Source: Escherichia coli
GTDB taxonomy: Bacteria; Pseudomonadota; Gammaproteobacteria; Enterobacterales; Enterobacteriaceae
Direction: 5' to 3' (one strand)
Length of the DNA stretch: 64,000 nt
Assembly: GCF_013315695.1 (NCBI RefSeq)
Contig: NZ_CP054353.1
Shown: positions 13,140 to 64,000 of the stretch, one piece after another
Numbering within the stretch: position 1 is the first letter of the stretch
Layout of the letters: each line of letters starts with the position of its first letter
Translations under genes and position numbers: made by a program
Notes under the pieces: model-generated
The model's input: only the letters and a program-made list of their open reading frames with translations
What the model was told of the DNA's origin: nothing
Database searches by the model: none

Positions 13140-13323
13140 AACAAAGCCGGGAATTACCCGGCTTTGTTATGGAATAAGGCGGTGCCTAACTCGACGTTTC
13201 GCCCGAGGGTTGATATAGCTACGCTGATATCAGAAGTTGGACGGCAGGCACCTTGTTGTGCGTCATTCGAATTTTATGTAGCACGTCCCGAAGGGGCTGA
13301 CATAAGTCGGTGAATGAGCCACT
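13140..13323 (-). ncRNA. glmY: small RNA GlmY
   Basis: Minus-strand sequence begins AGTGGCTCATTCACCGACTTATGTCAGCCCCTTCGGGACGTGC... and ends in a hairpin AAAGCCGGGTAATTCCCGGCTTTGTT; matches the GlmY sequence as I recall it; position between glrK and purL is as expected. Ends are approximate. Confidence 0.85.
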
Positions 13324-44615: not shown

Positions 44616-44728
44616 GTAAGGTACTGGAAATGTTGACCACTTAATCGGGACTGGTGTTATTATTGCCCGCTTATGTCGTCTGCATTGCACAGAGGACCCT
44701 TCAATGAACAGAGAAGAAATGCACTGTG

Positions 44729-46084
44729 ATGTTGTCAAAATTTAAGCGTAATAAACATCAACAACACCTTGCCCAACTACCCAAGATTTCTCAATCAGTT
44801 GATGATGTCGATTTCTTTTACGCTCCCGCCGACTTCCGGGAGACGCTGCTGGAAAAAATAGCCAGCGCGAAGCAGCGCATTTGCATTGTCGCCCTGTATC
44901 TCGAACAGGATGACGGTGGCAAAGGCATTCTGAACGCGTTGTATGAGGCTAAAAGGCAGCGTCCGGAACTGGATGTACGGGTGCTGGTCGACTGGCATCG
45001 TGCACAACGTGGACGCATTGGCGCTGCGGCATCTAACACTAACGCTGACTGGTACTGCCGCATGGCGCAGGAAAATCCGGGCGTAGATGTTCCGGTTTAT
45101 GGCGTTCCAATCAATACCCGTGAAGCCCTTGGTGTTCTGCACTTTAAAGGCTTTATCATCGACGATAGCGTACTTTATAGCGGTGCCAGCCTGAACGATG
45201 TTTACCTGCATCAGCACGATAAATATCGCTACGACCGTTATCATCTGATCCGTAACCGTAAGATGTCAGACATTATGTTTGAATGGGTTACACAGAATAT
45301 TATGAATGGCCGCGGCGTTAATCGTCTGGATGATGTTAATCGGCCAAAAAGCCCGGAAATCAAGAACGACATTCGCCTGTTCCGCCAGGAGCTGCGTGAT
45401 GCCGCTTATCATTTCCAGGGCGATGCCGACAACGATCAGCTTTCCGTAACGCCGCTAGTGGGGCTGGGGAAATCGAGTCTGTTGAACAAGACCATTTTCC
45501 ATCTTATGCCTTGTGCCGAGCAGAAACTAACCATCTGTACGCCATACTTCAACCTGCCAGCAATCCTTGTGCGCAATATTATCCAGTTGCTGCGCGAAGG
45601 GAAAAAGGTCGAAATTATTGTTGGTGATAAAACCGCGAATGACTTCTACATTCCGGAAGATGAACCTTTCAAGATAATTGGCGCATTGCCTTATCTCTAT
45701 GAGATCAATCTGCGTCGTTTCCTGAGCCGTTTGCAGTATTACGTCAATACTGACCAGTTAGTGGTTCGGTTATGGAAAGACGACGACAACACCTATCACC
45801 TGAAAGGGATGTGGGTTGATGATAAGTGGATGCTGGTAACCGGCAATAACCTGAACCCGCGCGCCTGGCGTCTGGATCTGGAAAACGCCATTTTGATCCA
45901 CGATCCACAACTGGAGCTTGCGCCGCAGCGAGAGAAAGAACTGGAGCTGATCCGCGAGCATACCACCATCGTTAAGCACTATCGCGATCTGCAAAGTATT
46001 GCCGATTATCCGGTGAAGGTTCGTAAACTCATCCGCCGTTTGCGCCGTATCCGCATCGACCGATTAATTAGCCGCATCCTGTAA
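44729..46084 (+). CDS. pssA: CDP-diacylglycerol--serine O-phosphatidyltransferase
   Basis: 451 aa from MLSKFKRNKHQQHLAQLPKISQ; PLD-like HKD motifs. Confidence 0.95.
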   Translation: MLSKFKRNKHQQHLAQLPKISQSVDDVDFFYAPADFRETLLEKIASAKQRICIVALYLEQDDGGKGILNALYEAKRQRPELDVRVLVDWHRAQRGRIGAAASNTNADWYCRMAQENPGVDVPVYGVPINTREALGVLHFKGFIIDDSVLYSGASLNDVYLHQHDKYRYDRYHLIRNRKMSDIMFEWVTQNIMNGRGVNRLDDVNRPKSPEIKNDIRLFRQELRDAAYHFQGDADNDQLSVTPLVGLGKSSLLNKTIFHLMPCAEQKLTICTPYFNLPAILVRNIIQLLREGKKVEIIVGDKTANDFYIPEDEPFKIIGALPYLYEINLRRFLSRLQYYVNTDQLVVRLWKDDDNTYHLKGMWVDDKWMLVTGNNLNPRAWRLDLENAILIHDPQLELAPQREKELELIREHTTIVKHYRDLQSIADYPVKVRKLIRRLRRIRIDRLISRIL

Positions 46085-46129
46085 TCACAACCCCGTCCTG
46101 TACGGGGTTTGTTTTTTGGAGGCCACGTT

Positions 46130-46453
46130 TTGCGTATTCTTTTTGTCTGTTCGCTATTGTTACTTTCTGGATGCAGCCATATGGCTAACGATAGCTGGAG
46201 CGGGCAGGATAAAGCTCAACACTTTATCGCCTCGGCGATGCTTTCCGCCGCCGGAAATGAATATTCACAGCATCAGGGGATGAGCCGGGATCGCAGTGCC
46301 ATGTTTGGATTGATGTTCTCTGTCAGTTTGGGGGCGTCAAAAGAGCTTTGGGATAGCCGCCCCGAAGGGAGCGGCTGGAGCTGGAAGGATTTGGCCTGGG
46401 ATGTCGCAGGTGCAAGCACCGGCTATACCGTCTGGCAACTGACCCGTCACTAA
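46130..46453 (+). CDS. yfiM: lipoprotein YfiM
   Basis: Probable TTG start at 46130 with GGAGG 8 nt upstream (107 aa); lipobox LLLSGC. The track ORF (from 46109) begins inside the pssA terminator hairpin. Confidence 0.7.
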
Positions 46454-47748
46454 AGACGCATCCCCTTCCCTTTGCGATGTAGCATCAAAGAAACCAGAAA
46501 CGCCACCACGGCCATCAAGGTCACATACCAGAAGAAGGCTGTTTCCATTCCTATTGATTTCAGCGACAACGCTACGTACTCCGCCGAACCACCAAATATA
46601 GCATTAGCGACCGCATATGACAGACCAACGCCTAATGCGCGAACCTGTGCCGGGAACATCTCAGCCTTCAGTATTCCACTGATTGATGTATAAAAACTCA
46701 CTATCAGCAGGGCACACATCACCAGACCAAAAGCGGCATAAGGCGAGGAAACGTTTTGCAATGCTGAGAGAATAGGAACGGTAAAAATGGCTGCCAGCGA
46801 ACCGAAACATAACATTGAGGTACGGCGACCAATCTTATCCGACAGCGCGCCAATGAGTGGTTGAATAAGCATGAATACAAACAATGCGGCAGTCATAATG
46901 CCACTCGCCACGTTGGCATGCATTCCCGCAGTATTTACCAGATACTTCTGCATATAAGTGGTGAAGGTATAGAAACAAAGGGAGCCCGCAGCGGTAAAAC
47001 CGAGAACCATGATGAATGCACGGCGATTGCGCCATAATCCTTTCAGAGATCCAGCTTCTTTTAAAGCGCGCGTTTCTTGTTGTGAAGTTTCATCTAACTG
47101 ACGACGTAACCACAACGCCACAACAGCTAACACAGCTCCTAACGCGAAAGGAATACGCCATCCCCACTCTCTGAGTGCAGCGTCTTCCATGGTGTGTTGT
47201 AAAACCACGACAACCAGTAGAGCTAGCAGTTGCCCGCCGATCAACGTCACATACTGAAATGATGCGTAAAAACCTTTGCGCCCTTCAACGGCAACTTCAC
47301 TCATATAGGTGGCGCTGGTGCCATATTCTCCGCCAACGGATAATCCCTGGAATAAACGAGCAAGAAGCAATAATGCCGGAGCCCAGGTACCGATTGTTTC
47401 GTAGCCTGGCAAACAGGCGATAACCAGTGAGCCGAAACACATCATACACACCGATAATAGCATCGATTTTTTGCGACCATGTTTATCGGCTATGCGGCCA
47501 AATAGCCAACCGCCTATTGGGCGCATCAGAAATCCCGCAGCAAAAACACCTGCTGTTTGTAGTAGTTGAGTCGTCGTGTTCCCGGAAGGGAAGAAGATGT
47601 GGGCAAAGTAGAGTGAACAGAACGAGTAGACATAGAAATCGAACCACTCGACCAGATTACCTGAAGAGGCCCCCACAATCGCCCAAATGCGGCGACGAGT
47701 ATCACTACTTGTCAGTTTTCTGTCTGCCGTTACAGTACTTTCAGCCAT
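46450..47748 (-). CDS. kgtP: alpha-ketoglutarate:proton symporter (MFS)
   Basis: 432 aa, 12-TM MFS transporter. Confidence 0.95.
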
Positions 47749-47927
47749 GCCATTATGTCTCCTGCCGTAATCCGATGCTTTTGTCGGTCACTTTTGTTTA
47801 TTTCTTTTGGTAAAGAAAATGTTATGCATTTGTTGCGTATCATTATGCAACCTTAACCATGAATTTAGTTAGCAGGAAAATGGTTATTGAGGAGCTTAAG
47901 GATAAATTTCTGGTAAGGAGGACACGT

Positions 47928-47990
47928 ATGGAAGTAGGCAAGTTGGGGAAACCGTATCCGTTGCTGAATCTGGCATATGTGGGAGTATAA
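47928..47990 (+). CDS. candidate small ORF (20 aa: MEVGKLGKPYPLLNLAYVGV)
   Basis: ATG at 47928 preceded by a near-perfect Shine-Dalgarno AAGGAGG (47915..47921) with 6-nt spacing; TAA stop at 47988; lies between kgtP and the rRNA operon terminator. Not a gene I recognise. Confidence 0.25.
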   Translation: MEVGKLGKPYPLLNLAYVGV

Positions 47991-48030
47991 GACGCGCAGC
48001 ATCGCATCAGGCATTTTTTTCTGCACCAAT

Positions 48031-48062
48031 GCAAAAAGGCCATCCTGACGGATGGCCTTCTG
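48031..48062 (-). terminator. rRNA operon terminator
   Basis: Minus-strand hairpin AAGGCCATCCGTCAGGATGGCCTT followed by a T-run, immediately downstream of the 5S gene. Confidence 0.65.
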
Positions 48063-48071
48063 CTTAATTTG

Positions 48072-48191
48072 ATGCCTGGCAGTTCCCTACTCTCGCATGG
48101 GGAGACCCCACACTACCATCGGCGCTACGGCGTTTCACTTCTGAGTTCGGCATGGGGTCAGGTGGGACCACCGCGCTAAGGCCGCCAGGCA
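48072..48191 (-). rRNA. rrf: 5S ribosomal RNA
   Basis: 120 nt whose reverse complement is TGCCTGGCGGC...GGAACTGCCAGGCAT, the canonical E. coli 5S sequence. Confidence 0.97.
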
Positions 48192-48285
48192 AATTCTGTT
48201 TATCAGACCACTTCTGCGTTCTGATTTAATCTGTTATCAAGCTTACTTATCGATGTCTCTTCCGCCAAAACATCTTCGGCGTTGT

Positions 48286-51190
<2,905 letters not shown>

Positions 51191-51383
51191 CACAACCCGA
51201 AGATGTTTCTTTCGACTCATCATCGTGTTGCGAAAATTTGAGAGACTCACGAACAACTTTCGTTGTTCAGTGTTTCAATTTTCAGCTTGATCCAGATTTT
51301 TAAAGAGCAAATATCTTAAACATGACTCGTAAGTCATCTTTAACGATATTAAGGTCGGTGACTTTCACTCACAAACCAGCAAG

Positions 51384-51459
51384 TGGCGTCCCCTAGGGGA
51401 TTCGAACCCCTGTTACCGCCGTGAAAGGGCGGTGTCCTGGGCCTCTAGACGAAGGGGAC
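51384..51459 (-). tRNA. tRNA-Glu in the 16S-23S spacer
   Basis: Reverse complement is GTCCCCTTCGTCTAGAGGCCCAGGACACCGCCCTTTCACGGCGGTAACAGGGGTTCGAATCCCCTAGGGGACGCCA (76 nt). Confidence 0.97.
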
Positions 51460-51545
51460 GTATCAGTCTGCTTCGCAAGACGCCTTGCTTTTCACTTTCT
51501 ATCAGACAATCTGTGTGAGCACTTCAAAGTACGCTTCTTTAAGGT

Positions 51546-53086
<1,541 letters not shown>

Positions 53087-53267
53087 AAAAGTTTGATGCT
53101 CAAAGAATTAAACTTCGTAATGAATTACGTGTTCACTCTTGAGACTTGGTATTCATTTTTCGTCTTGCGACGTTAAGAATCCGTATCTTCGAGTGCCCAC
53201 ACAGATTGTCTGATAAATTGTTAAAGAGCAGTGCCGCTTCGCTTTTTCTCAGCGGCGCGGGGTGTGC

Positions 53268-53414
53268 ATAATACGCTTTCCCGCTACAGAGTCAAGCATT
53301 TATTTTTGCTTTCTCTGCCGGAATTCTCAGGAGAACCCCGCTGACCCGGCGGCGTGTTTGCCGTTGTTCCGTGTCAGTGGTGGCGCATTATAGGGAGTTA
53401 TTCCGGCCTGACAA
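53268..53414 (-). promoter_or_regulatory. rRNA operon tandem promoters P1 and P2
   Basis: Minus strand: P1 TTGTCA-N16-TATAAT (53387..53414) followed by the GCGC discriminator; P2 TTGACT-N16-TATTAT (53268..53295); AT-rich UP region upstream of P1. Confidence 0.7.
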
Positions 53415-53498
53415 GAGGAAAATATAAAAACTTTATCGTTCGCTCATTTTTCAGGCAAAACATCTTAAATATAGTCTTTCCCGTCTAACTTATAGACA

Positions 53499-53525
53499 AA
53501 AACGAGCCCCGAAGGGCTCGTTTTA
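53499..53525 (-). terminator. clpB terminator
   Basis: Hairpin AAAACGAGCCCCGAAGGGCTCGTTTT directly after the clpB stop; palindromic, so potentially bidirectional. Confidence 0.6.
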
Positions 53526-53529
53526 TCAT

Positions 53530-56103
53530 TTACTGGACGGCGACAATCCGGTCTTCATTAACTTCCAGGCGAATCACTTTACCCGGAACCAATTCACCAG
53601 ACAGTATTTGCTGTGCCAGCGGGTTTTCGATCTGCTGCTGAATTGCACGTTTCAGAGGACGTGCACCATAGACCGGATCGTAACCGTTCTCGCTCAGCAG
53701 TTTCAGCGCCTCGTCAGAAATGTGGATTTCATAACCACGTTCTTCCAGACGTTTATACAGACGTTTCAACTGAATCTGCGCAATCGACGCAATGTGCTGT
53801 TCACCCAGCGGATGGAAGACCACCACTTCATCGATACGGTTAATGAATTCCGGACGGAAGTTATGGCTTACCACACCGAGCACCAGCTCTTTCATGTGCG
53901 CATAATCCAGTTCACCGAAGCGTTCCTGAATCAAATCGGAACCGAGGTTAGAGGTCATAATGACAACCGTATTACGGAAGTCGACCGTTCTCCCCTGCCC
54001 GTCAGTCAGACGCCCATCATCCAATACCTGCAACAGAATGTTGAAGACATCCGGATGCGCTTTTTCCACTTCATCCAGCAGGATGACGGAATACGGACGA
54101 CGACGCACCGCTTCGGTCAGGTAGCCACCTTCTTCATAACCGACATATCCCGGAGGCGCACCAACCAGACGAGACACCGAGTGTTTCTCCATAAACTCGG
54201 ACATATCGATACGGACCATCGCCTCGTCGCTATCAAACATAAAGTTCGCCAGCGCCTTACAAAGCTCAGTTTTCCCCACACCCGTTGGGCCGAGGAACAG
54301 GAATGAACCAATCGGGCGATTTGGATCCGCCAGCCCCGCACGGCTACGACGAATAGCGTTAGATACCGCATCAACCGCTTCGTTCTGACCAATAACGCGA
54401 TGGTGCAGTTCTTGCTCCATACGCAGCAGTTTTTCGCGCTCGCTTTCCATCATGCGAGAAACCGGAATCCCCGTCCAACGCGCCAGCACTTCAGCAATTT
54501 CGGCATCGGTCACTTTATTACGCAACAGACGCATAGTTTTGCCTTCGAGCTGCGTTGCGGCTTCCAGTTGCTTTTCCAGTTCCGGGATTTTGCCGTATTG
54601 CAGTTCAGACATCCGCGCCAGGTCACCCACACGGCGAGCCTGTTCAATAGCGATTTTCGCCTGTTCCAGTTCCGCTTTAATGGTCTGCGTACCAGAAAGC
54701 GATGCTTTCTCTGCTTTCCACTCTTCTTCTAACTCGGAGTACTGACGTTCTTTGTCGCTCAGTTCTTCGTTGAGCATATCCAGGCGTTTTTTACTGGCTT
54801 CATCAGACTCTTTCATTAACGCCTGTTGTTCCAGTTTGAGCTGGATGATACGGCGATCGAGTCGGTCGAGTTCTTCTGGTTTTGAGTCAATCTGCATACG
54901 AATGCTGGATGCTGCTTCATCGATCAGGTCGATGGCTTTATCTGGCAGCTGACGGTCAGCAATGTAGCGATGAGACAACGTCGCCGCTGCAACAATTGCC
55001 GGGTCAGTAATTTGCACATGGTGGTGCAATTCGTAACGTTCTTTCAGGCCACGCAGAATCGCAATGGTATCTTCAACAGAAGGCTCGGCAACAAACACTT
55101 TTTGGAAACGACGTTCCAGCGCAGCATCTTTTTCGATGTACTGGCGATATTCGTCAAGCGTCGTGGCACCTACGCAGTGCAATTCACCACGCGCCAGCGC
55201 CGGTTTCAGCATGTTTCCGGCGTCCATTGCGCCATCGGCTTTACCCGCGCCGACCATGGTATGTAATTCGTCGATAAACAGGATGACGTTGCCTTCCTGT
55301 TTGGCAAGATCGTTAAGTACGCCTTTTAAACGTTCTTCAAACTCACCGCGATATTTCGCCCCAGCCACCAGCGCGCCCATATCCAGCGCCAGTACGCGGC
55401 GGCCTTTCAACCCTTCGGGCACTTCGCCGTTGATAATACGCTGCGCCAGACCTTCAACGATGGCAGTCTTACCGACGCCGGGTTCACCAATCAGTACCGG
55501 GTTATTTTTAGTACGACGTTGCAGCACCTGAATGGTACGGCGAATTTCTTCATCACGACCAATCACCGGATCGAGTTTACCCTGTTCGGCTCGTTCGGTA
55601 AGGTCGATGGTATATTTTTTCAAAGCCTGACGTTGGTCTTCAGCACCTTGATCGTTCACGCTTTCACCTCCACGCATTTGTTCAATCGCTTGAGTAATGT
55701 TGGCGGTGGTCGCCCCTGCTGCTTTCAGGATGTCGGCCAGCGTGCCGCGAGACTCAAGTGCCGCCAGAACGAACAGTTCTGACGAGATAAAGTTATCACC
55801 ACGTTTTTGCGCCAGCTTGTCGCAAAGATTAAGAACGCGCACCAGATCCTGTGATGGCTGGACATCACCACCAGTACCTTCAACCTGCGGTAAACGATTT
55901 AATGCCTGATTGATATCTGTGCGCAACTGGCCAGCATTTATGCCAGCGGATGTTAATAAAGGACTAACCGAACCCCCTTCCTGATTCAGCAGGGCGCTCA
56001 TTAAATGAAGTGGTTCGATGAATTGGTTGTCGTGCCCGAGTGCAAGTGATTGGGCATCGGCAAGAGCAAGCTGGAATTTATTAGTAAGACGATCCAGACG
56101 CAT
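53530..56103 (-). CDS. clpB: ClpB disaggregase chaperone (AAA+)
   Basis: 857 aa from [18 protein letters not shown]; two AAA+ modules with Walker A/B and a coiled-coil middle domain. Confidence 0.97.
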
Positions 56104-56141
56104 AACTCCTCCCATAACGGATCAAAGTTGCTACTGGAGAT

Positions 56142-56171
56142 TAAATGAGGTCATCCCTCAATTATTCAAGG
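56142..56171 (-). promoter_or_regulatory. sigma32 heat-shock promoter of clpB
   Basis: Minus-strand CTTGAA-N14-CCTCATTTA, matching the sigma32 consensus (CTTGAA / CCCCATnT) upstream of clpB. Confidence 0.55.
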
Positions 56172-56232
56172 TTATTGACCAGATTAATGTGAAAAGAAAA
56201 TCACGCGTACCGGATCGTCTTGATTCTTTAGG

Positions 56233-56964
56233 TTATATCAGCCAAATGAAACTTGCCATACGACCGGTGGTCTTGTCGCGACGATAAGAGAAGAAAGTCT
56301 CATTTTCCGTATATGTACAACGGCCGCCGCCGAAAATTTGTTCAACGCCAACGCTCGCCAGACGCTGTCGGGCAAGGAGATAAATATCCGCCAGATACTT
56401 ATCACCATGCTGAATGAAAGCTGTACTCGCTTTGGCGTCTACTGCCATAAACGCCTCGCGAACCTCCGCCCCCACTTCAAACGCGCGTGGACCAATTGCC
56501 GGCCCTAACCAGGCGAGAATATTTTCCGGATTATCAGCAAAACAAGAAACCGTCTCTTCCAGCACGCCAGAACACAGCCCGCGCCAGCCTGCATGAGCGG
56601 CGGCAACTTCCGTTCCCGTACGATTGCAAAACAGCACAGGGAGGCAGTCAGCCGTCATCACTGCGCAAACCGTGCCGGGCGTATTGCTATAAGAGGCATC
56701 AGCTCGTTTTGAGGCATAAGGTTCGCCAGTAAGCTTAAGCACATCTTTGCCGTGTACCTGCTCAAGCCAGACCGGTTTTGAAGGCAAATTGCCCGCAGCA
56801 AAAAGTCGCTTGCGATTCTCTTCAACGTGATCCGGGTTATCGCCACAATGGGCACCGAGGTTGAGCGAGTCATACGGGGGCAAGCTCACGCCGCCGATAC
56901 GAGTAGAGCTACAAGCCGCAACACCTTTTGGCAGCGGCCACTGCGGGACAATCAGCTTACTCAT
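56233..56964 (-). CDS. yfiH: polyphenol oxidase-like / purine nucleoside phosphorylase-like protein (DUF152)
   Basis: 243-aa ORF; conserved partner of rluD. Also known as pgeF. Confidence 0.9.
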   Translation of the reverse strand: MSKLIVPQWPLPKGVAACSSTRIGGVSLPPYDSLNLGAHCGDNPDHVEENRKRLFAAGNLPSKPVWLEQVHGKDVLKLTGEPYASKRADASYSNTPGTVCAVMTADCLPVLFCNRTGTEVAAAHAGWRGLCSGVLEETVSCFADNPENILAWLGPAIGPRAFEVGAEVREAFMAVDAKASTAFIQHGDKYLADIYLLARQRLASVGVEQIFGGGRCTYTENETFFSYRRDKTTGRMASFIWLI

Positions 56965-57941
56965 AACCAGTCCACTTCATCTTTATGCTCTTCGAAATCG
57001 GCGCGCATCACCTCAATCAGCTCCACCATATCTTGTGGAATAGGCGCATGCCATTCCATTTCGATACCGGAGATCGGGTGATAAAGACGCAGCATGGTTG
57101 CATGAAGCGCCTGGCGGTCAAATTTACGCAGCGTGGAGATAAACGCTTCCGAAGCACCTTTTGGCGGACGCGGACGGCCACCATAAACCGGATCGCCCAC
57201 CAGCGGATGAGTGATATGGGCCATATGCACGCGGATCTGGTGCGTACGTCCAGTTTCCAGACGCAACCGCAGACGCGTGTGCACACGGAAGTGTTCCATG
57301 ATGCGATAGTGAGTCACCGCTGGTTTGCCCATCGGATGCACCGCCATGTGAGTACGTTTGGTCGGGTGGCGACTGATTGGCTCATCCACCGTACCACCAG
57401 CGGTCATATGACCAATTGCGACAGCTTCATACTCACGAGTAATTTCACGCCGTTGCAAAGATTCGACTAAACGCGTCTGAGCCGGAACGGTTTTTGCCAC
57501 AACCATCAGGCCAGTGGTGTCTTTATCCAGACGATGGACGATGCCCGCACGCGGTACATCGGCAATGGGCGGATAATAATGAAGCAATGCATTCAGTACC
57601 GTGCCATCCGGGTTACCCGCGCCAGGATGTACCACCAGGTCGCGTGGTTTATTAATGACGATGATATCTTCATCTTCATAGACGATATCCAGCGGGATAT
57701 CCTGCGGTTCAAAACGCGCTTCTTCTTCAATCTCAGCGTTGATGGCCACCTGCTCGCCACCCAATACTTTTTCTTTCGGCTTATCACAAACTTTGCCGTT
57801 AACCAGCACGCGCTGGTCGAGGATCCATTCTTTTATCCGCGAACGTGAATAATCCGGGAACATTTCGGCCAAAGCCTGATCTAAGCGTTGACCGAGTTGG
57901 TTTTCGGACACCGTTGCAGTGAGCTGTACTCGTTGTGCCAT
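56961..57941 (-). CDS. rluD: 23S rRNA pseudouridine synthase D
   Basis: 326 aa with S4 domain and RluA-family catalytic motif (HRLDKDTTGL); stop overlaps the yfiH start. Confidence 0.95.
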   Translation of the reverse strand: MAQRVQLTATVSENQLGQRLDQALAEMFPDYSRSRIKEWILDQRVLVNGKVCDKPKEKVLGGEQVAINAEIEEEARFEPQDIPLDIVYEDEDIIVINKPRDLVVHPGAGNPDGTVLNALLHYYPPIADVPRAGIVHRLDKDTTGLMVVAKTVPAQTRLVESLQRREITREYEAVAIGHMTAGGTVDEPISRHPTKRTHMAVHPMGKPAVTHYRIMEHFRVHTRLRLRLETGRTHQIRVHMAHITHPLVGDPVYGGRPRPPKGASEAFISTLRKFDRQALHATMLRLYHPISGIEMEWHAPIPQDMVELIEVMRADFEEHKDEVDWL

Positions 57942-58075
57942 ATATACTGCTTCTTCGTTTATCGTTGGGGTTTTACGGCTTTGCCGTTTAATATAGTGTG
58001 CTATTGTAGCTGGTCTTAACCGGGAGCAGGAACAGAGAATCTCCCGTATTACATTTTGAGGAAAGTCAAAACGTC

Positions 58076-58813
58076 ATGACGCGCATGAAATATCTGGTGG
58101 CAGCCGCCACACTAAGCCTGTTTTTGGCGGGTTGCTCGGGGTCAAAGGAAGAAGTACCTGATAATCCGCCAAATGAAATTTACGCGACTGCACAACAAAA
58201 GCTGCAGGACGGTAACTGGAGACAGGCAATAACGCAACTGGAAGCGTTAGATAATCGCTATCCGTTTGGTCCGTATTCGCAGCAGGTGCAGCTGGATCTC
58301 ATCTACGCCTACTATAAAAACGCCGATTTGCCGTTAGCACAGGCTGCCATCGATCGTTTTATTCGCCTTAACCCGACCCATCCGAATATCGATTATGTCA
58401 TGTACATGCGTGGCCTGACCAATATGGCGCTGGATGACAGTGCGCTGCAAGGGTTCTTTGGCGTTGACCGTAGCGATCGCGATCCTCAACATGCACGAGC
58501 TGCGTTTAGTGACTTTTCCAAACTGGTGCGCGGCTATCCGAACAGTCAGTACACCACCGATGCCACCAAACGTCTGGTATTCCTGAAAGATCGTCTGGCG
58601 AAATATGAATACTCCGTTGCCGAGTACTATACAGAACGTGGTGCATGGGTTGCCGTCGTTAACCGCGTAGAAGGCATGTTGCGCGACTACCCGGATACCC
58701 AGGCTACGCGTGATGCGCTGCCGCTGATGGAAAATGCATACCGTCAGATGCAGATGAATGCGCAAGCTGAAAAAGTAGCGAAAATCATCGCTGCAAACAG
58801 CAGCAATACATAA
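58076..58813 (+). CDS. bamD: outer membrane protein assembly factor BamD
   Basis: 245-aa lipoprotein (LFLAGCSG) with TPR-like repeats; divergent from rluD. Confidence 0.95.
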
Positions 58814-58850
58814 CAAAAACCTGAAACACAAAACGGCAGCCCTTGAGCTG

Positions 58851-60276
58851 TAATGCCGATCAGTTAAGGATCAGTTGACCGATCCAGTGGCTGTGTAAGA
58901 ATCCGGAAACGCTCACTTGTTTCCGGATTTTTTTATGCACATTGGACAGGCTCTTGATCTGGTATCCCGTTACGATTCTCTGCGTAACCCACTGACTTCT
59001 CTGGGGGATTACCTCGACCCCGAACTCATCTCTCGTTGCCTTGCCGAATCAGGTACTGTAACGCTACGCAAGCGCCGTCTTCCCCTCGAAATGATGGTCT
59101 GGTGTATTGTTGGCATGGCGCTTGAGCGTAAAGAACCTCTTCACCAGATTGTGAATCGCCTGGACATCATGCTGCCGGGCAATCGCCCCTTCGTTGCCCC
59201 CAGTGCCGTTATTCAGGCCCGCCAGCGCCTGGGAAGTGAGGCTGTCCGCCGCGTGTTCACGAAAACAGCGCAGCTCTGGCATAACGCCACGCCGCATCCG
59301 CACTGGTGCGGCCTGACCCTGCTGGCCATCGATGGTGTGTTCTGGCGCACACCGGATACACCAGAGAACGATGCAGCCTTCCCCCGCCAGACACATGCCG
59401 GGAACCCGGCGCTCTACCCGCAGGTCAAAATGGTCTGCCAGATGGAACTGACCAGCCATCTGCTGACGGCTGCAGCCTTCGGCACGATGAAGAACAGCGA
59501 AAATGAGCTTGCTGAGCAACTTATAGAACAAACCGGCGATAACACTCTGACGTTAATGGATAAAGGTTATTACTCACTGGGACTGTTAAATGCCTGGAGC
59601 CTGGCGGGAGAACACCGCCACTGGATGATACCTCTCAGAAAGGGAGCGCAATATGAAGAGATCAGAAAACTGGGTAAAGGCGATCATCTGGTGAAGCTGA
59701 AAACCAGCCCGCAGGCACGAAAAAAGTGGCCGGGACTGGGAAATGAAGTGACAGCCCGCCTGCTGACCGTGACGCGCAAAGGAAAAGTCTGCCATCTGCT
59801 GACGTCGATGACGGACGCCATGCGCTTCCCCGGAGGAGAAATGGCGGATCTGTACAGTCATCGCTGGGAAATCGAACTGGGATACAGGGAGATAAAACAG
59901 ACGATGCAACTGAGCAGGCTGACGCTGAGAAGTAAAAAACCGGAGCTTGTGGAGCAAGAGCTGTGGGGTGTCTTACTGGCTTATAATCTGGTGAGATATC
60001 AGATGATTAAAATGGCGGAACATCTGAAAGGTTACTGGCCGAATCAACTGAGTTTCTCAGAATCATGCGGAATGGTGATGAGAATGCTGATGACATTGCA
60101 GGGCGCTTCACCGGGACGTATACCGGAGCTGATGCGCGATCTTGCAAGTATGGGACAACTTGTGAAATTACCGACAAGAAGGGAAAGGGCCTTCCCGAGA
60201 GTGGTAAAGGAGAGGCCCTGGAAATACCCCACAGCCCCGAAAAAGAGCCAGTCAGTTGCTTAACTGACTGGCATTA
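58851..60276 (+). mobile_element. insertion sequence IS4 (complete, 1426 bp)
   Basis: 18-bp terminal inverted repeats TAATGCCGATCAGTTAAG (58851..58868) and CTTAACTGACTGGCATTA (60259..60276), 16/18 complementary; length 1426 bp; encodes the IS4 transposase. The 11-13 bp flanks do not match (CCCTTGAGCTG vs CAGCCTTCGGG), so there is no target-site duplication. Confidence 0.95.
58938..60263 (+). CDS. insG: IS4 transposase (DDE family)
   Basis: Translation [35 protein letters not shown]...[17 protein letters not shown] matches the IS4 transposase as I recall it; the track ORF starts 7 codons earlier (58917). Confidence 0.9.
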
Positions 60277-60308
60277 CAGCCTTCGGGCTGGCATTTTTTA
60301 TGGTTGAG

Positions 60309-61181
60309 TTACCAGCGACCGGACGCGCCGCCACCGCCAGAAGAACCGCCCCCGCCGCTAAATCCGCCGCCACTTGAGCCGCCACCGGAACCGCTGTTGT
60401 CTGAATGATAACTTCTACCAGATGCTTTTTTCTGAAGTACACATAAACAGGTAAAGACCATAATGGTGGTGAAAGTAAAAAAGAAGAAAAATACAGCAAT
60501 GGAAAAAGTTTTATCGGAGAACAGGAATAAATCTAAAAGATAGATTGCTGAAATACAGACACTGCTTTTACATGCGCGACAAAAATTACTGCCTTGATGA
60601 AAAAACCAGAAAGGGAAGAACATCACTGCAAATACCCAAAAAATAGCAAAGTAATAATGATCACTGGAAGACGCTGATTCAATTTCTGAAGGATTAGCCG
60701 GATATTGGTGTTGTGAAGTGAGTTGGTTATTCAAAGCGTTTATAGCTAGCTCTAATCCCTGAGCTAATTTTTGTTGTTTAAATGCGGGTATCATGTTGCT
60801 ACGGATGATATCTCCAGCCAGAGCATCGGTTACCTTTTCTTCCAGCCCATAACCTACCTGGATGCGGACAGTGCGATCCGACCAGGCAACAATGATCAGT
60901 ATCCCATCATTGCGTTTGGCATCTCCTAAACGCCAATTGTTAAAAACCCTTGTAGCATATTGTTCAATTGTCTCGTCTTTGGTTGTGGGAATAATTAATA
61001 CAGCAATTTGTACTTGGGTATTATTGAAAATAGATTCTAACTTCCGCGTCAGTTCTTTCTTTTCTTGTGAGTTTAAGCTACTCGTAAGATCCGTAACTTG
61101 TTGCTGTAATTGTGGGACAATAGTTGGTTGGGCTGCAACAAAGGAACACACGAATGTGAATATTAGTATGAAATAGCGCAT
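60309..61181 (-). CDS. ygcG: TPM-domain membrane protein
   Basis: 290 aa from [19 protein letters not shown] (signal peptide), TPM domain, TM segment and a Gly/Ser-rich low-complexity C-terminal tail. Confidence 0.85.
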
Positions 61182-61474
61182 TATAAATGTCCCATTAAAG
61201 CTGGATAAATAAATTGACGGCGGCATCGGTAATTTGAGATTCGTTATAATTAAAAACGAACACAGAAAAAATAAGTATAATTTCGGTGAATGTTTTTGAC
61301 ATGATTAAATCCCTTTACTTTATTTATTTCTGACATAATACGTTACTTCCTTTTATTATTAACGATCTGTTTCTCATTTTTCTTTAAACCTGCCTGTAAC
61401 AGAATGTTAATAAGACATGATTGTTGTGGCAGGATCTGCAATAATTAACAATTATCCACTTCACAGAGAATGCT

Positions 61475-62146
61475 ATGCAGTACCCGATTAACGAGATGTT
61501 CCAGACCCTGCAAGGTGAGGGTTACTTTACCGGCGTCCCCGCCATTTTTATTCGTTTACAGGGATGTCCGGTCGGCTGTGCCTGGTGCGACACCAAACAC
61601 ACCTGGGAAAAGCTTGAGGATCGGGAAGTCTCCCTTTTCAGCATTCTGGCGAAGACCAAAGAGAGTGATAAGTGGGGGGCGGCGAGCAGTGAAGATTTGC
61701 TGGCTGTCATTGGTCGTCAGGGATACACCGCGCGGCATGTGGTGATTACGGGTGGTGAGCCTTGCATTCATGATTTGCTGCCACTGACTGACCTGCTCGA
61801 AAAGAACGGTTTTAGCTGCCAGATAGAAACCAGCGGCACTCACGAAGTACGTTGCACACCGAATACCTGGGTTACTGTTTCGCCAAAACTGAACATGCGC
61901 GGCGGCTATGAAGTGTTGTCACAGGCACTGGAGCGCGCTAACGAAATTAAACATCCTGTTGGGCGTGTTCGTGACATCGAAGCGCTGGATGAGCTATTAG
62001 CAACGCTGACCGATGATAAACCACGAGTCATTGCACTGCAGCCGATTAGCCAAAAGGATGATGCCACTCGTTTGTGCATTGAAACCTGCATTGCGCGTAA
62101 CTGGCGTTTGTCGATGCAAACACATAAATATCTAAATATTGCCTGA
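61475..62146 (+). CDS. queE: 7-carboxy-7-deazaguanine synthase (radical SAM)
   Basis: 223 aa with radical-SAM cysteine motif (CPVGCAWCDTKHTW); divergent from ygcG. Confidence 0.95.
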   Translation: MQYPINEMFQTLQGEGYFTGVPAIFIRLQGCPVGCAWCDTKHTWEKLEDREVSLFSILAKTKESDKWGAASSEDLLAVIGRQGYTARHVVITGGEPCIHDLLPLTDLLEKNGFSCQIETSGTHEVRCTPNTWVTVSPKLNMRGGYEVLSQALERANEIKHPVGRVRDIEALDELLATLTDDKPRVIALQPISQKDDATRLCIETCIARNWRLSMQTHKYLNIA

Positions 62147-62485
62147 TTAAACATTTATAAGCGTTATAAATGGGTGGAACCTGTAAAGACTTCTACTCAT
62201 TTATATTGTTTGTCGCCTCTGAAAACTCATCCATCTTGCCCATCCTGAACTAATCATTATCATTCTCTACAAATTCTGTGGCGTTAATTTTTCGCTGGAG
62301 TGAAAATTATTGCGGTAAAGTTTGGTAGATTTTAGTTTGTATAGAGTTATTTTAAATATTTACCTTTTTAATCAATGGATTAAGTGCTCTTTAACATAAT
62401 GGATGTGTTGTTTGTGTGATACTGTAAAGTTGGTAGATTGTGACTGGCTTAAAAAATCATTAATTAATAATAGGTTATGTTTAGA
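62147..62485 (+). promoter_or_regulatory. CRISPR leader (AT-rich) of the main array
   Basis: AT-rich non-coding stretch directly upstream of the first repeat, in the orientation where repeats read GTGTTCCCCGCGCCAGCGGGGATAAACCG; the crRNA promoter is expected inside it. Confidence 0.5.
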
Positions 62486-63307
62486 GTGTTCCCCGCGCCA
62501 GCGGGGATAAACCAAATACAGGACCAATATTTTGATATATATAATCGTGTTCCCCGCGCCAGCGGGGATAAACCGGTGATTCTGGCAATACTGGCACTTC
62601 CGTTTTGGTGTTCCCCGCGCCAGCGGGGATAAACCGGGCGGTTAACTGGTCCTGTGCGGATATGCGCTGTGTTCCCCGCGCCAGCGGGGATAAACCGATG
62701 TGGAAAGGCGAGCTGAGGGTGGCCTACGCGTGTTCCCCGCGCCAGCGGGGATAAACCGGCTGAGGAAATTGCTAAACCCTCGCAGGATCCGTGTTCCCCG
62801 CGCCAGCGGGGATAAACCGTTGCCGGTACAGCTCCAGCATTAATCCCCACCGTGTTCCCCGCGCCAGCGGGGATAAACCGTTGCGACGTGGTGCGCGCTC
62901 GAGCACAACGTTGTGTTCCCCGCGCCAGCGGGGATAAACCGATGTAAACCCCTCGCGCATCGAGTCAAATGTCGTGTTCCCCGCGCCAGCGGGGATAAAC
63001 CGCCACCTCAGCCTGCGCGCCCGCTGAATATTCCGTGTTCCCCGCTCCAGCGGGGATAAACCGGGACGCGTTCCATCAGGGCGGGTCCAGGGAATGTGTT
63101 CCCCGCGCCAGCGGGGATAAACCGCAGGCGGCGCAGTGGCGCATGAATCCGTTCGCGTGTTCCCCGCGCCAGCGGGGATAAACCGGAGTTTGTGAATTTA
63201 ACAGAATTCCGCGCCCGGTGTTCCCCGCGCCAGCGGGGATAAACCAGCCAATTGCCATATATGCCATCGCCAGCAGCCGTGTTCCCCGCGCCAGCGGGGA
63301 TAAACCA
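62486..63307 (+). CRISPR. CRISPR array with type I-E repeats: 14 repeats, 13 spacers of 32 bp
   Basis: 29-bp repeat GTGTTCCCCGCGCCAGCGGGGATAAACCG at a perfect 61-bp period starting 62486, 62547, 62608 ... 63279. Variants: repeat 10 has CGCTCCAG; repeats 1, 13 and 14 end in A. Spacer 1 is AATACAGGACCAATATTTTGATATATATAATC, spacer 2 is GTGATTCTGGCAATACTGGCACTTCCGTTTTG. No cas genes in the window. Confidence 0.95.
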
Positions 63308-63775
63308 CCATATAACCCGTTATCTCTTTCTCAAGTTTTTATATTAGCTGTACTTGTAATAAGCAACATATCCACATAACACCTCATGTTCAAAATAGTT
63401 CCCCATGCCAGATAAGTTCACAATTATCGATACAAAAAATCAAATTTAATCAAAGTGTTATTTGTATAATCCTTAAACCGTTAAGAAATTTTAATATATT
63501 ATTTTTTTAATATTAATTAATGCCTGTTAATTTTTTCTTTAGAATAACAGTGTATTTTTTAAGCTTGTTATTCATTGATTAAGTAATAAATCTGGAAGTT
63601 TGTCTTTGTTTTGAGGCTAATGAGTGGTTTTACATAACCGCCTCTATACGCTGTTGATGAATAGTTCTTATGAATAAAGATATCCAGTTCATACTTTAAG
63701 TGAAAATTGATAAAGTGCGATTCGTATTGTCTTTTATTCTAAAGACATCGAGTGTAGTTAATATTCCTTGTAAAA

Positions 63776-63897
63776 ACAGGGATAAACCGAACTAGTTAAA
63801 GTTTTTATTATGTTCCCTGCATCAGCGGGGATAAACCGGACTTGTTATCATTTTTTAAGTTGTCGAACTTATGTTCCCCGCGTCAGCGGGGATAACC
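63776..63897 (+). CRISPR. vestigial second CRISPR array (two degenerate repeats plus one truncated repeat)
   Basis: Truncated repeat (..CAGGGATAAACCG, 63776..63789), a 20-bp spacer, ATGTTCCCTGCATCAGCGGGGATAAACCG (63810..63838), a 32-bp spacer, then ATGTTCCCCGCGTCAGCGGGGATAACC (63871..63897); preceded by its own AT-rich leader-like region (63308..63775). Confidence 0.6.
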
Positions 63898-64000
63898 ATT
63901 CAGGTATGTTCAGGCCGGGCAGTTTCCCGCCCGGCCTTCCTCACTTACGCATTCGACCAGCTCTGGATCGAATCCGCATTCCCCAATTCCCCATGCATCA

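What the first reader, a model, noticed from the sequence alone, without database searches (positions are those of the whole stretch)
62147..63307. Cas-less type I-E CRISPR array with 13 spacers next to queE
A perfectly periodic 14-repeat array with the E. coli type I-E repeat sits after queE and no cas gene occurs anywhere in the 64 kb. The spacers are a record of past encounters with foreign DNA and their targets are unknown from sequence alone. Repeat polymorphisms (G to T in repeat 10, terminal A in repeats 1, 13 and 14) and an unusually AT-rich first spacer are visible. Whether the array is expressed and functional depends on a cas operon elsewhere in the genome.
Basis: seen in the sequence. 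Interest (0 to 1): 0.5.

Follow-up and report, generated by a model that had tools for sequence, protein, structure and literature searches.

The report
E. coli CRISPR-II array, not orphan
This is the well-known second CRISPR array of Escherichia coli (CRISPR2.3, between queE/ygcF and ygcE); it looks cas-less only because the 64-kb window stops about 16 kb short of the type I-E cas operon that serves it.

Summary
The array is real: 14 repeats of 29 nt and 13 spacers of 32 nt, strict 61-nt period, at 62486-63307. The finding's start, 62147, is the start of the AT-rich leader.

The "cas-less/orphan" reading is a window-edge effect. Window 58900-64000 is 100% identical to E. coli MSB1_4I. In that genome a complete cas3-casABCDE-cas1-cas2 operon and a small CRISPR2.1 array begin 16.35 kb past the window end.

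This is the published CRISPR-II locus (ygcE-ygcF).

Spacer targets found:
- Spacer 1: phage neck gene, 33/33.
- Spacer 3: P2-like prophage portal gene, 32/32, PAM ATG.
- Spacer 7: prophage tail fibre gene, 31/32, PAM ATG.
- Spacer 11: phage RecT gene, 30/32, PAM ATG.
- Spacer 13 (oldest): the E. coli core gene abrB, PAM CCA.

The terminal A of repeats 1 and 13 is the base that came in with each spacer from its protospacer. The terminal A of repeat 14 is ancestral.

The kind of locus is already known and the interest is low. The spacer set itself is rare: only 2 of 5426 complete genomes carry it.

The parts
61475..62146 (+). queE (ygcF), 7-carboxy-7-deazaguanine synthase; the conserved gene flanking CRISPR-II on the leader side
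   Evidence: ORF of 223 aa. RefSeq annotation of the identical sequence in MSB1_4I.
62147..62485 (+). Leader of CRISPR2.3: AT-rich (GC 0.30) and directly upstream of repeat 1. It carries the motif AGTTGGTAGATTGT, shared with the CRISPR2.1 leader, at 62426-62439 and a second copy at about 62316-62331. A perfect IHF-consensus match lies at 62370-62382.
   Evidence: The literature places the array promoter and the sequences needed for integration in this leader (PMC3903273, PMC3737337). The promoter was not mapped here. The only sigma-70-like hit on the + strand is 62236-62263, and the scan found no more sites than shuffled sequence does.
62486..63307 (+). CRISPR2.3 array: 14 repeats of 29 nt ('CRISPR-A' variant, GTGTT...) and 13 spacers of 32 nt. 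It is read from the leader towards ygcE, so spacer 1 is the newest.
   Evidence: Each repeat folds into a 7-bp hairpin with a 4-nt loop (-15.2 kcal/mol, z = -3.2). The G to T change in repeat 10 falls in the loop and keeps the stem. Annotated as CRISPR in RefSeq.
62515..62546 (+). Spacer 1 (newest, GC 0.22). It targets a phage neck/tail-completion gene.
   Evidence: 33/33 identity, including the preceding A, to IMG/VR contig UViG_2529293142_000021. The flank at -3..-1 is ATA. The gene matches phrog_27 and sits in a head-neck module.
62637..62668 (+). Spacer 3. It targets the portal gene of P2-like prophages.
   Evidence: 33/33 in at least 7 E. coli genomes, with PAM ATG. Not found within 3 mismatches in the one P2-like prophage region of MSB1_4I that was checked.
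62881..62912 (+). Spacer 7. It targets a prophage tail-fibre gene.
   Evidence: 31/32 (mismatch at position 8), PAM ATG.
63125..63156 (+). Spacer 11. It targets a phage/prophage RecT recombinase gene.
   Evidence: 30/32 with PAM ATG on E. coli plasmid pE16EC1016-8, whose neighbouring genes are phage-like. 29/32 with PAM ATG in Salmonella phage SPN1S, and a similar match in a Klebsiella Uetakevirus.
63247..63278 (+). Spacer 13 (oldest). It is derived from the E. coli core chromosomal gene abrB (antisense strand).
   Evidence: The spacer plus the preceding A matches abrB 33/33 in 1196 complete genomes, and matches in 5420 of 5426 genomes. At most 7 genomes have a second copy, meaning one in an array. 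The flank is CCA. The abrB of MSB1_4I differs at position 19.
63308..63760 (+). AT-rich stretch (GC about 0.27) of roughly 0.45-0.5 kb between CRISPR2.3 and CRISPR2.2. The junction CCATATAACCCG... is conserved.
   Evidence: The same terminal repeat ending in A and the same trailer occur in TW10690, whose spacers are unrelated. The published spacing is 0.5 kb (PMC3903273).
63761..63899 (+). CRISPR2.2 fossil mini-array: three degenerate repeats (63761-63789, 63810-63838, 63871-63899) with a 20-nt and a 32-nt AT-rich spacer.
   Evidence: The hairpin is retained in the two full repeats. At least 99% identical in 3793 complete genomes and present in 4090 of 5426. Unannotated in the eight records listed.
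63945..64000 (-). 3' end of ygcE (FGGY-family kinase), the conserved gene flanking CRISPR-II on the far side
   Evidence: RefSeq annotation of the identical sequence (record 1150620-1152098, which is window 63945 onward).

Best explanation
The feature is the CRISPR-II locus of the Escherichia coli type I-E CRISPR-Cas system. It consists of the leader, the CRISPR2.3 array (13 spacers) and the fossil CRISPR2.2 remnant, between queE (ygcF) and ygcE.

It is not an orphan. In the source lineage it is served in trans by a complete non-K-12-variant type I-E cas operon. That operon lies about 16 kb beyond the window end, at the CRISPR-I locus (cysH-iap), and has its own 3-spacer CRISPR2.1 array.

Mechanism, from established knowledge of E. 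coli I-E and not tested here:
- The leader drives transcription of a pre-crRNA.
- Cas6e cuts at the base of each repeat hairpin.
- Cascade carrying a 61-nt crRNA finds protospacers flanked by an AWG motif and recruits Cas3.
- Cas1-Cas2 adds new spacers at the leader-proximal repeat. Each spacer brings in the last base of the 29-nt repeat.

Content shown here: four spacers match temperate-phage or prophage genes (neck, portal, tail fibre, RecT). The oldest spacer was taken from the E. coli gene abrB. Its flank is CCA, which is not an interference motif, so it is most likely tolerated.
For: Shown here:
- Array anatomy.
- Repeat hairpin.
- Window 58900-64000 is 100% identical to MSB1_4I.
- That genome has eight intact cas ORFs at record 1167027-1175580, 16,352 bp past the window end. 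It also has a CRISPR2.1 array with the identical 29-nt repeat.
- Its Cas6e is highly diverged from K-12 CasE (45 bits). Cas1, by contrast, aligns along almost its whole length (584 bits). This fits the non-K-12 cas-E variant.
- The three foreign protospacers that carry a G at -1 all carry ATG. ATG is the motif reported as commonest for that variant (PMC3737337).
- Spacer targets are phage genes, in line with PMC10910852.
- The locus layout matches the published description of CRISPR-II, including the 0.5-kb gap and the leader position (PMC3903273).
- The window differs from MSB1_4I only by an inversion between two IS4 copies, which carries CRISPR-II and cas together.
- A second genome with the same junction (TW10690) keeps the synteny from the array to the cas locus.
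Against: - The window's own genome is not in the collections searched, so the cas operon beyond position 64000 is inferred from a near-identical relative.
- cas-E operons are often degraded in E. coli. TW10690 itself has lost casABCD and part of cas3.
- Expression was not tested. In K-12 the system is silenced by H-NS (my own knowledge), so the array may be largely inactive in practice.
- No convincing promoter was found in the leader by the consensus scan.
- Eight of the 13 spacers (2, 4, 5, 6, 8, 9, 10, 12) have no identified target.
Confidence: 0.93

Rival explanations
1. True orphan array: the source strain has lost its I-E cas genes, so the array is an inert fossil kept only by linkage.
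For: No cas gene lies in the window. Many E. coli lineages keep CRISPR-II without cas-E genes (PMC3903273). TW10690, which shares the IS4 junction, has a partly deleted cas operon.
Against: The 5.1 kb around the array, with all 13 spacers, is 100% identical to MSB1_4I, and a further 16 kb is 99.86% identical. MSB1_4I has eight uninterrupted cas ORFs 16 kb away. The repeats are almost unmutated: 10 of the 14 repeats are identical to the consensus over all 29 nt. The protospacers found carry the motif expected for that cas variant.
Confidence: 0.05
2. The array is intact and cas genes are present, but the system is transcriptionally silent and plays no defensive role. The spacers are then only a historical record.
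For: Established for K-12, where H-NS silences the system (my own knowledge). E. coli arrays are reported to be stable over long times (PMC10910852). A self-derived spacer against abrB is tolerated.
Against: This is a statement about activity, not about identity, and it is compatible with the best explanation. MSB1_4I contains no target for spacers 1-12 (one place per genome), although it carries at least two P2-like prophages. That fits exclusion of targeted phages, as argued in PMC10910852. The abrB protospacer has a non-permissive flank (CCA), so its tolerance does not require silence.
Confidence: 0.4
3. The periodic repeats are not a CRISPR array but some other tandem repeat, or an assembly artefact.
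For: None found.
Against: The period is an exact 61 nt and the intervening sequences are unique. The repeat is identical to the one next to cas2e. Four spacers match phage genes. The same locus is annotated as CRISPR in thousands of finished genomes.
Confidence: 0.005

Closest known systems
E. coli CRISPR-II locus (CRISPR2.2 + CRISPR2.3, ygcE-ygcF), as described by Diez-Villasenor et al. 2010 and Almendros et al. 2014 (PMC3903273)
   Same: Same flanking genes (queE = ygcF, and ygcE). The leader is on the ygcF side. The repeat is a 29-nt type-2 repeat. The CRISPR2.2 remnant lies about 0.5 kb downstream. The cas-E genes are at the separate iap-cysH locus.
   Different: Only the spacer content differs. 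The full 13-spacer set occurs in 2 of 5426 complete genomes, and any of spacers 1-12 occurs in only 56.
E. coli K-12 MG1655 type I-E system (CRISPR-I/CRISPR-II, Cascade-Cas3)
   Same: Same architecture and, by inference, the same mechanism. Cas1 aligns to K-12 Cas1 along almost its whole length (584 bits).
   Different: The repeat starts GTG ('CRISPR-A') instead of GAG ('CRISPR-T'). The associated Cascade genes belong to the other variant: Cas6e scores only 45 bits against K-12 CasE. The natural protospacer flanks found are ATG rather than the AAG of K-12 (PMC3737337).
E. coli O157:H7-type (cas-EO / E1) I-E variant
   Same: CRISPR-A repeats, an AWG (CWT) acquisition motif with CAT/ATG the commonest natural PAM, and a hok/gef gene upstream of cas3.
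   Different: Assignment to this variant rests on divergence from K-12 and on the motif. No direct comparison with an O157:H7 cas sequence was made.

Membership tests
CRISPR array (general) | Short direct repeats of constant length, regularly interspaced by unique spacers of similar length | tested here: met
   14 repeats of 29 nt, 13 unique 32-nt spacers, period 61 nt.
CRISPR array (general) | AT-rich leader on one side that sets the polarity | tested here: met
   62147-62485 has GC 0.30, against 0.51 for the window. It shares a motif with the leader next to cas2e.
Type I-E (E. coli type-2 repeat) array | Repeat sequence identical to the repeat adjacent to a type I-E cas1e-cas2e pair | tested here: met
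   The identical 29-mer follows cas2e in MSB1_4I (L001 32678-32828).
Type I-E (E. coli type-2 repeat) array | Repeat RNA forms the stem-loop recognised by Cas6e, with an 8-nt 5' handle ending ...AUAAACCG | tested here: met
   A 7-bp stem and 4-nt loop followed by AUAAACCG, -15.2 kcal/mol. Cleavage itself was not tested.
Type I-E (E. coli type-2 repeat) array | Protospacers flanked by an AWG motif on the spacer-sense strand, with the G matching the last repeat base | tested here: met
   ATG for spacers 3, 7 and 11. Spacers 1 and 13 have ATA and CCA, and their -1 A matches the A at the end of repeats 1 and 13.
Type I-E (E. coli type-2 repeat) array | A cognate cas3 + Cascade + cas1-cas2 operon in the same genome | tested here: inconclusive
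   Not in the window. Present and intact 16.35 kb past the window end in the genome with identical sequence. The source genome itself could not be read.
E. coli CRISPR-II locus (CRISPR2.2/2.3) | Located between ygcF (queE) and ygcE, with the leader on the ygcF side | tested here: met
   queE at 61475-62146, ygcE from 63945; PMC3903273.
E. coli CRISPR-II locus (CRISPR2.2/2.3) | A second small array (CRISPR2.2) about 0.5 kb from CRISPR2.3 | tested here: met
   Degenerate repeats at 63761-63899, starting 454 nt after the end of the main array. Conserved in 4090 genomes.
Orphan (cas-less) CRISPR array | No cognate cas genes anywhere in the genome | tested here: not met
   Tested on the closest available genome only: MSB1_4I has the full operon. 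True only at the scale of the 64-kb window.

The most novel reading that the evidence does not exclude
The oldest spacer (13) is a copy of the E. coli core gene abrB. Its flank CCA resembles the array's own repeat end. The abrB of the closest genome differs from the spacer by one base. The most novel reading still open has two forms. In the first, the spacer records a self-acquisition or autoimmunity episode, with target mutation as escape, or Cascade binding to abrB with a regulatory effect. In the second, it records uptake of a spacer from incoming foreign E. coli DNA during conjugation or transduction. Either would be a small natural example of type I-E acting on chromosomal DNA of its own species.
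Probability: 0.07. Interest if true: 0.35.

Novelty: already known. Interest (0 to 1): 0.12.

Why it matters
It matters little beyond bookkeeping. The locus is a textbook component of the E. coli type I-E system, and RefSeq already annotates the identical sequence as CRISPR.

Three practical points follow:
- 'No cas gene in the window' is not evidence for an orphan array in E. coli, because the species splits its I-E system over two loci about 17-25 kb apart.
- The spacer set is rare enough (2 of 5426 finished genomes) to serve as a clone marker for the MSB1_4I lineage.
- The spacer targets add one more case to the picture that E. coli arrays mainly record temperate phages, with occasional self-derived spacers that persist next to a non-permissive flank.

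Tried and rejected
- Rfam at gathering thresholds on the whole window gave no CRISPR repeat family hit, so identification rests on comparison with the cas-adjacent repeat.
- The whole array used as a BLAST query against plasmids was swamped by other arrays' repeats. I replaced it with a concatenate of the spacers only.
- No spacer matches elsewhere in the window at up to 8 mismatches.
- Spacers 1-12 have no second place in MSB1_4I.
- Exact 22-mer scans of IMG/VR for spacers 2, 4, 5, 6, 8, 10 and 12 found nothing. These scans miss targets with any mismatch in the first 22 nt.
- The consensus promoter scan found no convincing leader promoter and no terminator, at a rate no better than shuffles.
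- The IHF consensus hit at 62370-62382 lies 104 nt from repeat 1. That is not where I recall the K-12 site being mapped, so I make no claim from it.
- A 37-aa tblastn hit of Cas2 inside the ORF at 41955-44615, which I take to be patZ from gene order (E = 0.002, 27.7 bits), was dismissed as noise.
- The 128-aa ORF at 62464-62850 (-) is an artefact of the repeats.
- A literature search for an abrB-matching E. coli spacer found nothing relevant.

Full report

Yes. Reading 61000-64000, the repeat finder and a fuzzy-pattern scan agree. There are fourteen copies of GTGTTCCCCGCGCCAGCGGGGATAAACCG, starting at 62486 and recurring exactly every 61 nt up to 63279-63307. Thirteen unique 32-nt spacers lie between them.

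- G to T at position 12 of repeat 10.
- A instead of G as the last base of repeats 1, 13 and 14.

Spacer 1 has GC 0.22, against 0.47-0.69 for the other spacers.

The stated start, 62147, is the base after the queE stop codon, not the first repeat. Positions 62147-62485 are an AT-rich leader (GC 0.30, against 0.51 for the window).

It has three decayed repeats, one 20-nt spacer and one 32-nt spacer.

**2. What is it?**

A megablast of 61400-64000 against 5426 complete E. coli genomes hit 5425 of them. The features under the match are queE, 'CRISPR' and ygcE.

One genome, E. coli MSB1_4I (NZ_LR898874.1), is 100% identical over the query. A direct comparison shows zero mismatches over window 58900-64000.

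This is the locus the literature calls CRISPR-II. [quoted passage not shown] CRISPR-II carries CRISPR2.2 and CRISPR2.3 "separated by 0.5 kb", with a leader next to CRISPR2.3 (PMC3903273). ygcF is the old name of queE.

The mini-array at 63761-63899 is therefore CRISPR2.2. It is at least 99% identical in 3793 genomes and is unannotated in the eight records listed, which makes it a fixed fossil.

**3. Is it cas-less?**

Only at the scale of the window. tblastn with eight Cas proteins found nothing in the 64 kb.

In MSB1_4I, the region after ygcE runs through yqcE, ygcW-ygcN, queD and cysJIH to a hok/gef gene. Then come cas3, casA, casB, cas7e, cas5e, cas6e, cas1e and cas2e, at record 1167027-1175580. 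That start is 16,352 bp beyond window position 64000. All eight ORFs are uninterrupted.

Directly after cas2e lies a CRISPR2.1 array of four repeats, the first three identical to the window's repeat. The 13-spacer array in the window is thus the larger of two arrays served by one operon.

Cas6e of this operon scores only 45 bits against K-12 CasE, while Cas1 aligns to K-12 Cas1 along almost its whole length (584 bits). This fits the two known cas-E variants. The repeat (GTG..., 'CRISPR-A') also goes with the non-K-12 variant (PMC3737337).

**4. Can MSB1_4I stand in for the source?**

The window is not colinear with MSB1_4I to the left of 58847.
- The window reads bamD | IS4 (58851-60276) | ygcG-queE.
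- MSB1_4I reads eno | IS4 | ygcG-queE.

MSB1_4I has a second IS4, in inverted orientation, between raiA and bamD. Each of its two copies has matching target duplications: CAGCCTTCGGGCTG at eno/ygcG and CAGCCCTTGAGCTG at raiA/bamD. The window's IS4 has one of each.

Window 44084-60276 is 99.86% identical to the reverse complement of MSB1_4I 1333811-1349999. The source is therefore an MSB1_4I-like strain in which the segment of about 188 kb between the two IS4 copies is inverted.

That segment contains both CRISPR-II and the cas locus, so their 16-kb linkage is unaffected. TW10690, the only complete genome with the same junction, keeps the synteny from the array to the cas locus, although its own operon has lost casABCD.

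The presence of cas in the true source is therefore a strong inference, not an observation.

**5. Spacer targets**

Searches used INPHARED phages, PLSDB plasmids, complete E. coli genomes and IMG/VR.

| Spacer | Target | Match | Flank (-3..-1) |
|---|---|---|---|
| 1 | Neck/tail-completion gene (phrog_27) on a 41-kb viral contig | 33/33 incl. the preceding A | ATA |
| 3 | Portal gene of P2-like prophages | 32/32 | ATG |
| 7 | Prophage tail-fibre gene | 31/32 | ATG |
| 11 | RecT gene on an E. coli plasmid with phage-like genes | 30/32 | ATG |
| 11 | RecT gene in Salmonella phage SPN1S | 29/32 | ATG |
| 13 | E. coli core gene abrB | 33/33 in 1196 genomes | CCA |

ATG (written CAT on the other strand) is reported as the most frequent natural motif for arrays of the non-K-12 variant, and as competent for interference (PMC3737337).

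Spacers 2, 6, 8, 9 and 10 were seen only in other strains' arrays. Spacers 4, 5 and 12 matched nothing outside the arrays that share most of this spacer set.

Only 56 of 5426 genomes contain any of spacers 1-12. Only MSB1_4I and OZ547117 contain the full set.

MSB1_4I has no second copy of spacers 1-12, although it carries at least two P2-like prophages. The prophage region tested lacks the spacer 3 target.

**6. The self-derived spacer**

Spacer 13, the oldest, matches the antisense strand of abrB. With its preceding A it matches in 5420 of 5426 genomes, and 33/33 in 1196. At most 7 genomes hold a second copy, meaning one in an array.

The flank is CCA. To my knowledge this is not an interference-proficient motif, and it resembles the repeat's own end (CCG). 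In MSB1_4I the abrB protospacer differs at position 19.

The simplest reading is a rare acquisition from E. coli chromosomal DNA that persists because the flank is non-permissive. Self-matching spacers are reported in about 10% of E. coli genomes (PMC10910852).

**7. The 'repeat polymorphisms'**

The last base of the 29-nt repeat is not copied from the repeat. It enters with the spacer from the protospacer's -1 position (PMC3737337).
- Repeats 1 and 13: the A matches the A that precedes the protospacers of spacers 1 and 13.
- Repeat 14: the A is ancestral. TW10690, whose spacers are unrelated, has the same ...ACCA terminal repeat and the same trailer CCATATAACCCG.
- Repeat 10: the G to T change lies in the hairpin loop. 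It leaves the 7-bp stem intact and costs 1.3 kcal/mol.

**8. Mechanism**

The mechanism is taken from established knowledge of E. coli type I-E and was not tested here.
- The leader promotes transcription of a pre-crRNA.
- Cas6e cleaves after the hairpin, leaving the 8-nt handle AUAAACCG.
- Cascade scans for AWG-flanked targets and recruits Cas3.
- Cas1-Cas2, with IHF, inserts new spacers at repeat 1.

Both leaders, 2.1 and 2.3, share AGTTGGTAGATTGT about 50-60 nt upstream of repeat 1. This may be the integrase-anchoring element described for K-12 (recalled from memory, not tested). The consensus promoter scan was uninformative.

**9. Verdict**

- Observation: confirmed.
- Interpretation: partly supported. 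The I-E array next to queE is correct; 'orphan' is a window-edge artefact.
- Kind of feature: already known and already annotated in RefSeq.
- Interest: low.

What is specific to this case is a rare spacer set, phage and prophage targets with ATG flanks, one abrB-derived spacer, and an adjacent IS4-mediated inversion.

Noticed in passing
window 58851-60276 (IS4), with junctions at 58837-58850 and 60277-60290: An IS4 copy joins bamD to ygcG, two genes about 170 kb apart on the K-12 map (from memory). Its flanking target duplications do not match: CAGCCCTTGAGCTG on the left and CAGCCTTCGGGCTG on the right. MSB1_4I has two inverted IS4 copies, each with one of these duplications on both sides. 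The window therefore records an inversion of about 188 kb by IS4-IS4 recombination. Only 1 of 5426 complete genomes (TW10690) shares the junction.
   Followed up: yes
window 63761-63899: The CRISPR2.2 fossil mini-array has three degenerate repeats and two AT-rich spacers, one truncated to 20 nt. It is at least 99% identical in 3793 complete E. coli genomes and is unannotated in the eight records listed.
   Followed up: yes
window 63247-63278; L010 21052-21083 (-): The oldest spacer is a copy of the core gene abrB (antisense strand) with a CCA flank. It matches 33/33 in 1196 genomes, but the nearest relative's own abrB differs at position 19. At most 7 complete genomes carry it in an array.
   Followed up: partly
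window 61195-61336 (-): The small gene between ygcG and queE is annotated as a frameshifted pseudogene in the identical MSB1_4I sequence. In TW10690 the equivalent gene is yqcG, a cell envelope stress response protein.
   Followed up: no
L001 23681-23833 (MSB1_4I, about 16 kb beyond the window end): A hok/gef toxin gene sits between cysH and cas3, as described for some CRISPR-I arrangements. The same gene is present in TW10690, next to a truncated cas3.
   Followed up: no
L011 12643-16631 (TW10690): In the other genome with the bamD-IS4-ygcG junction, the cas operon has lost casA, casB, cas7e and cas5e, and cas3 is partial. cas6e, cas1e, cas2e and a CRISPR2.1 array of about 880 bp remain.
   Followed up: no
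window 62316-62331 and 62424-62439: The CRISPR2.3 leader contains two copies of GTAAAGTT(T)GGTAGATT, 108 nt apart. The repeat-proximal copy is shared with the CRISPR2.1 leader of MSB1_4I. A perfect IHF consensus (AATCAATGGATTA) lies between them at 62370-62382.
   Followed up: partly
window 48074-53086 and other Rfam hits: The window holds a complete rrn operon on the - strand (16S, a tRNA, 23S, 5S). It also holds GlmY (13176-13323), rncO, AsrC, RyfD, ohsC and ES036. This is ordinary content for this part of the E. coli chromosome.
   Followed up: no
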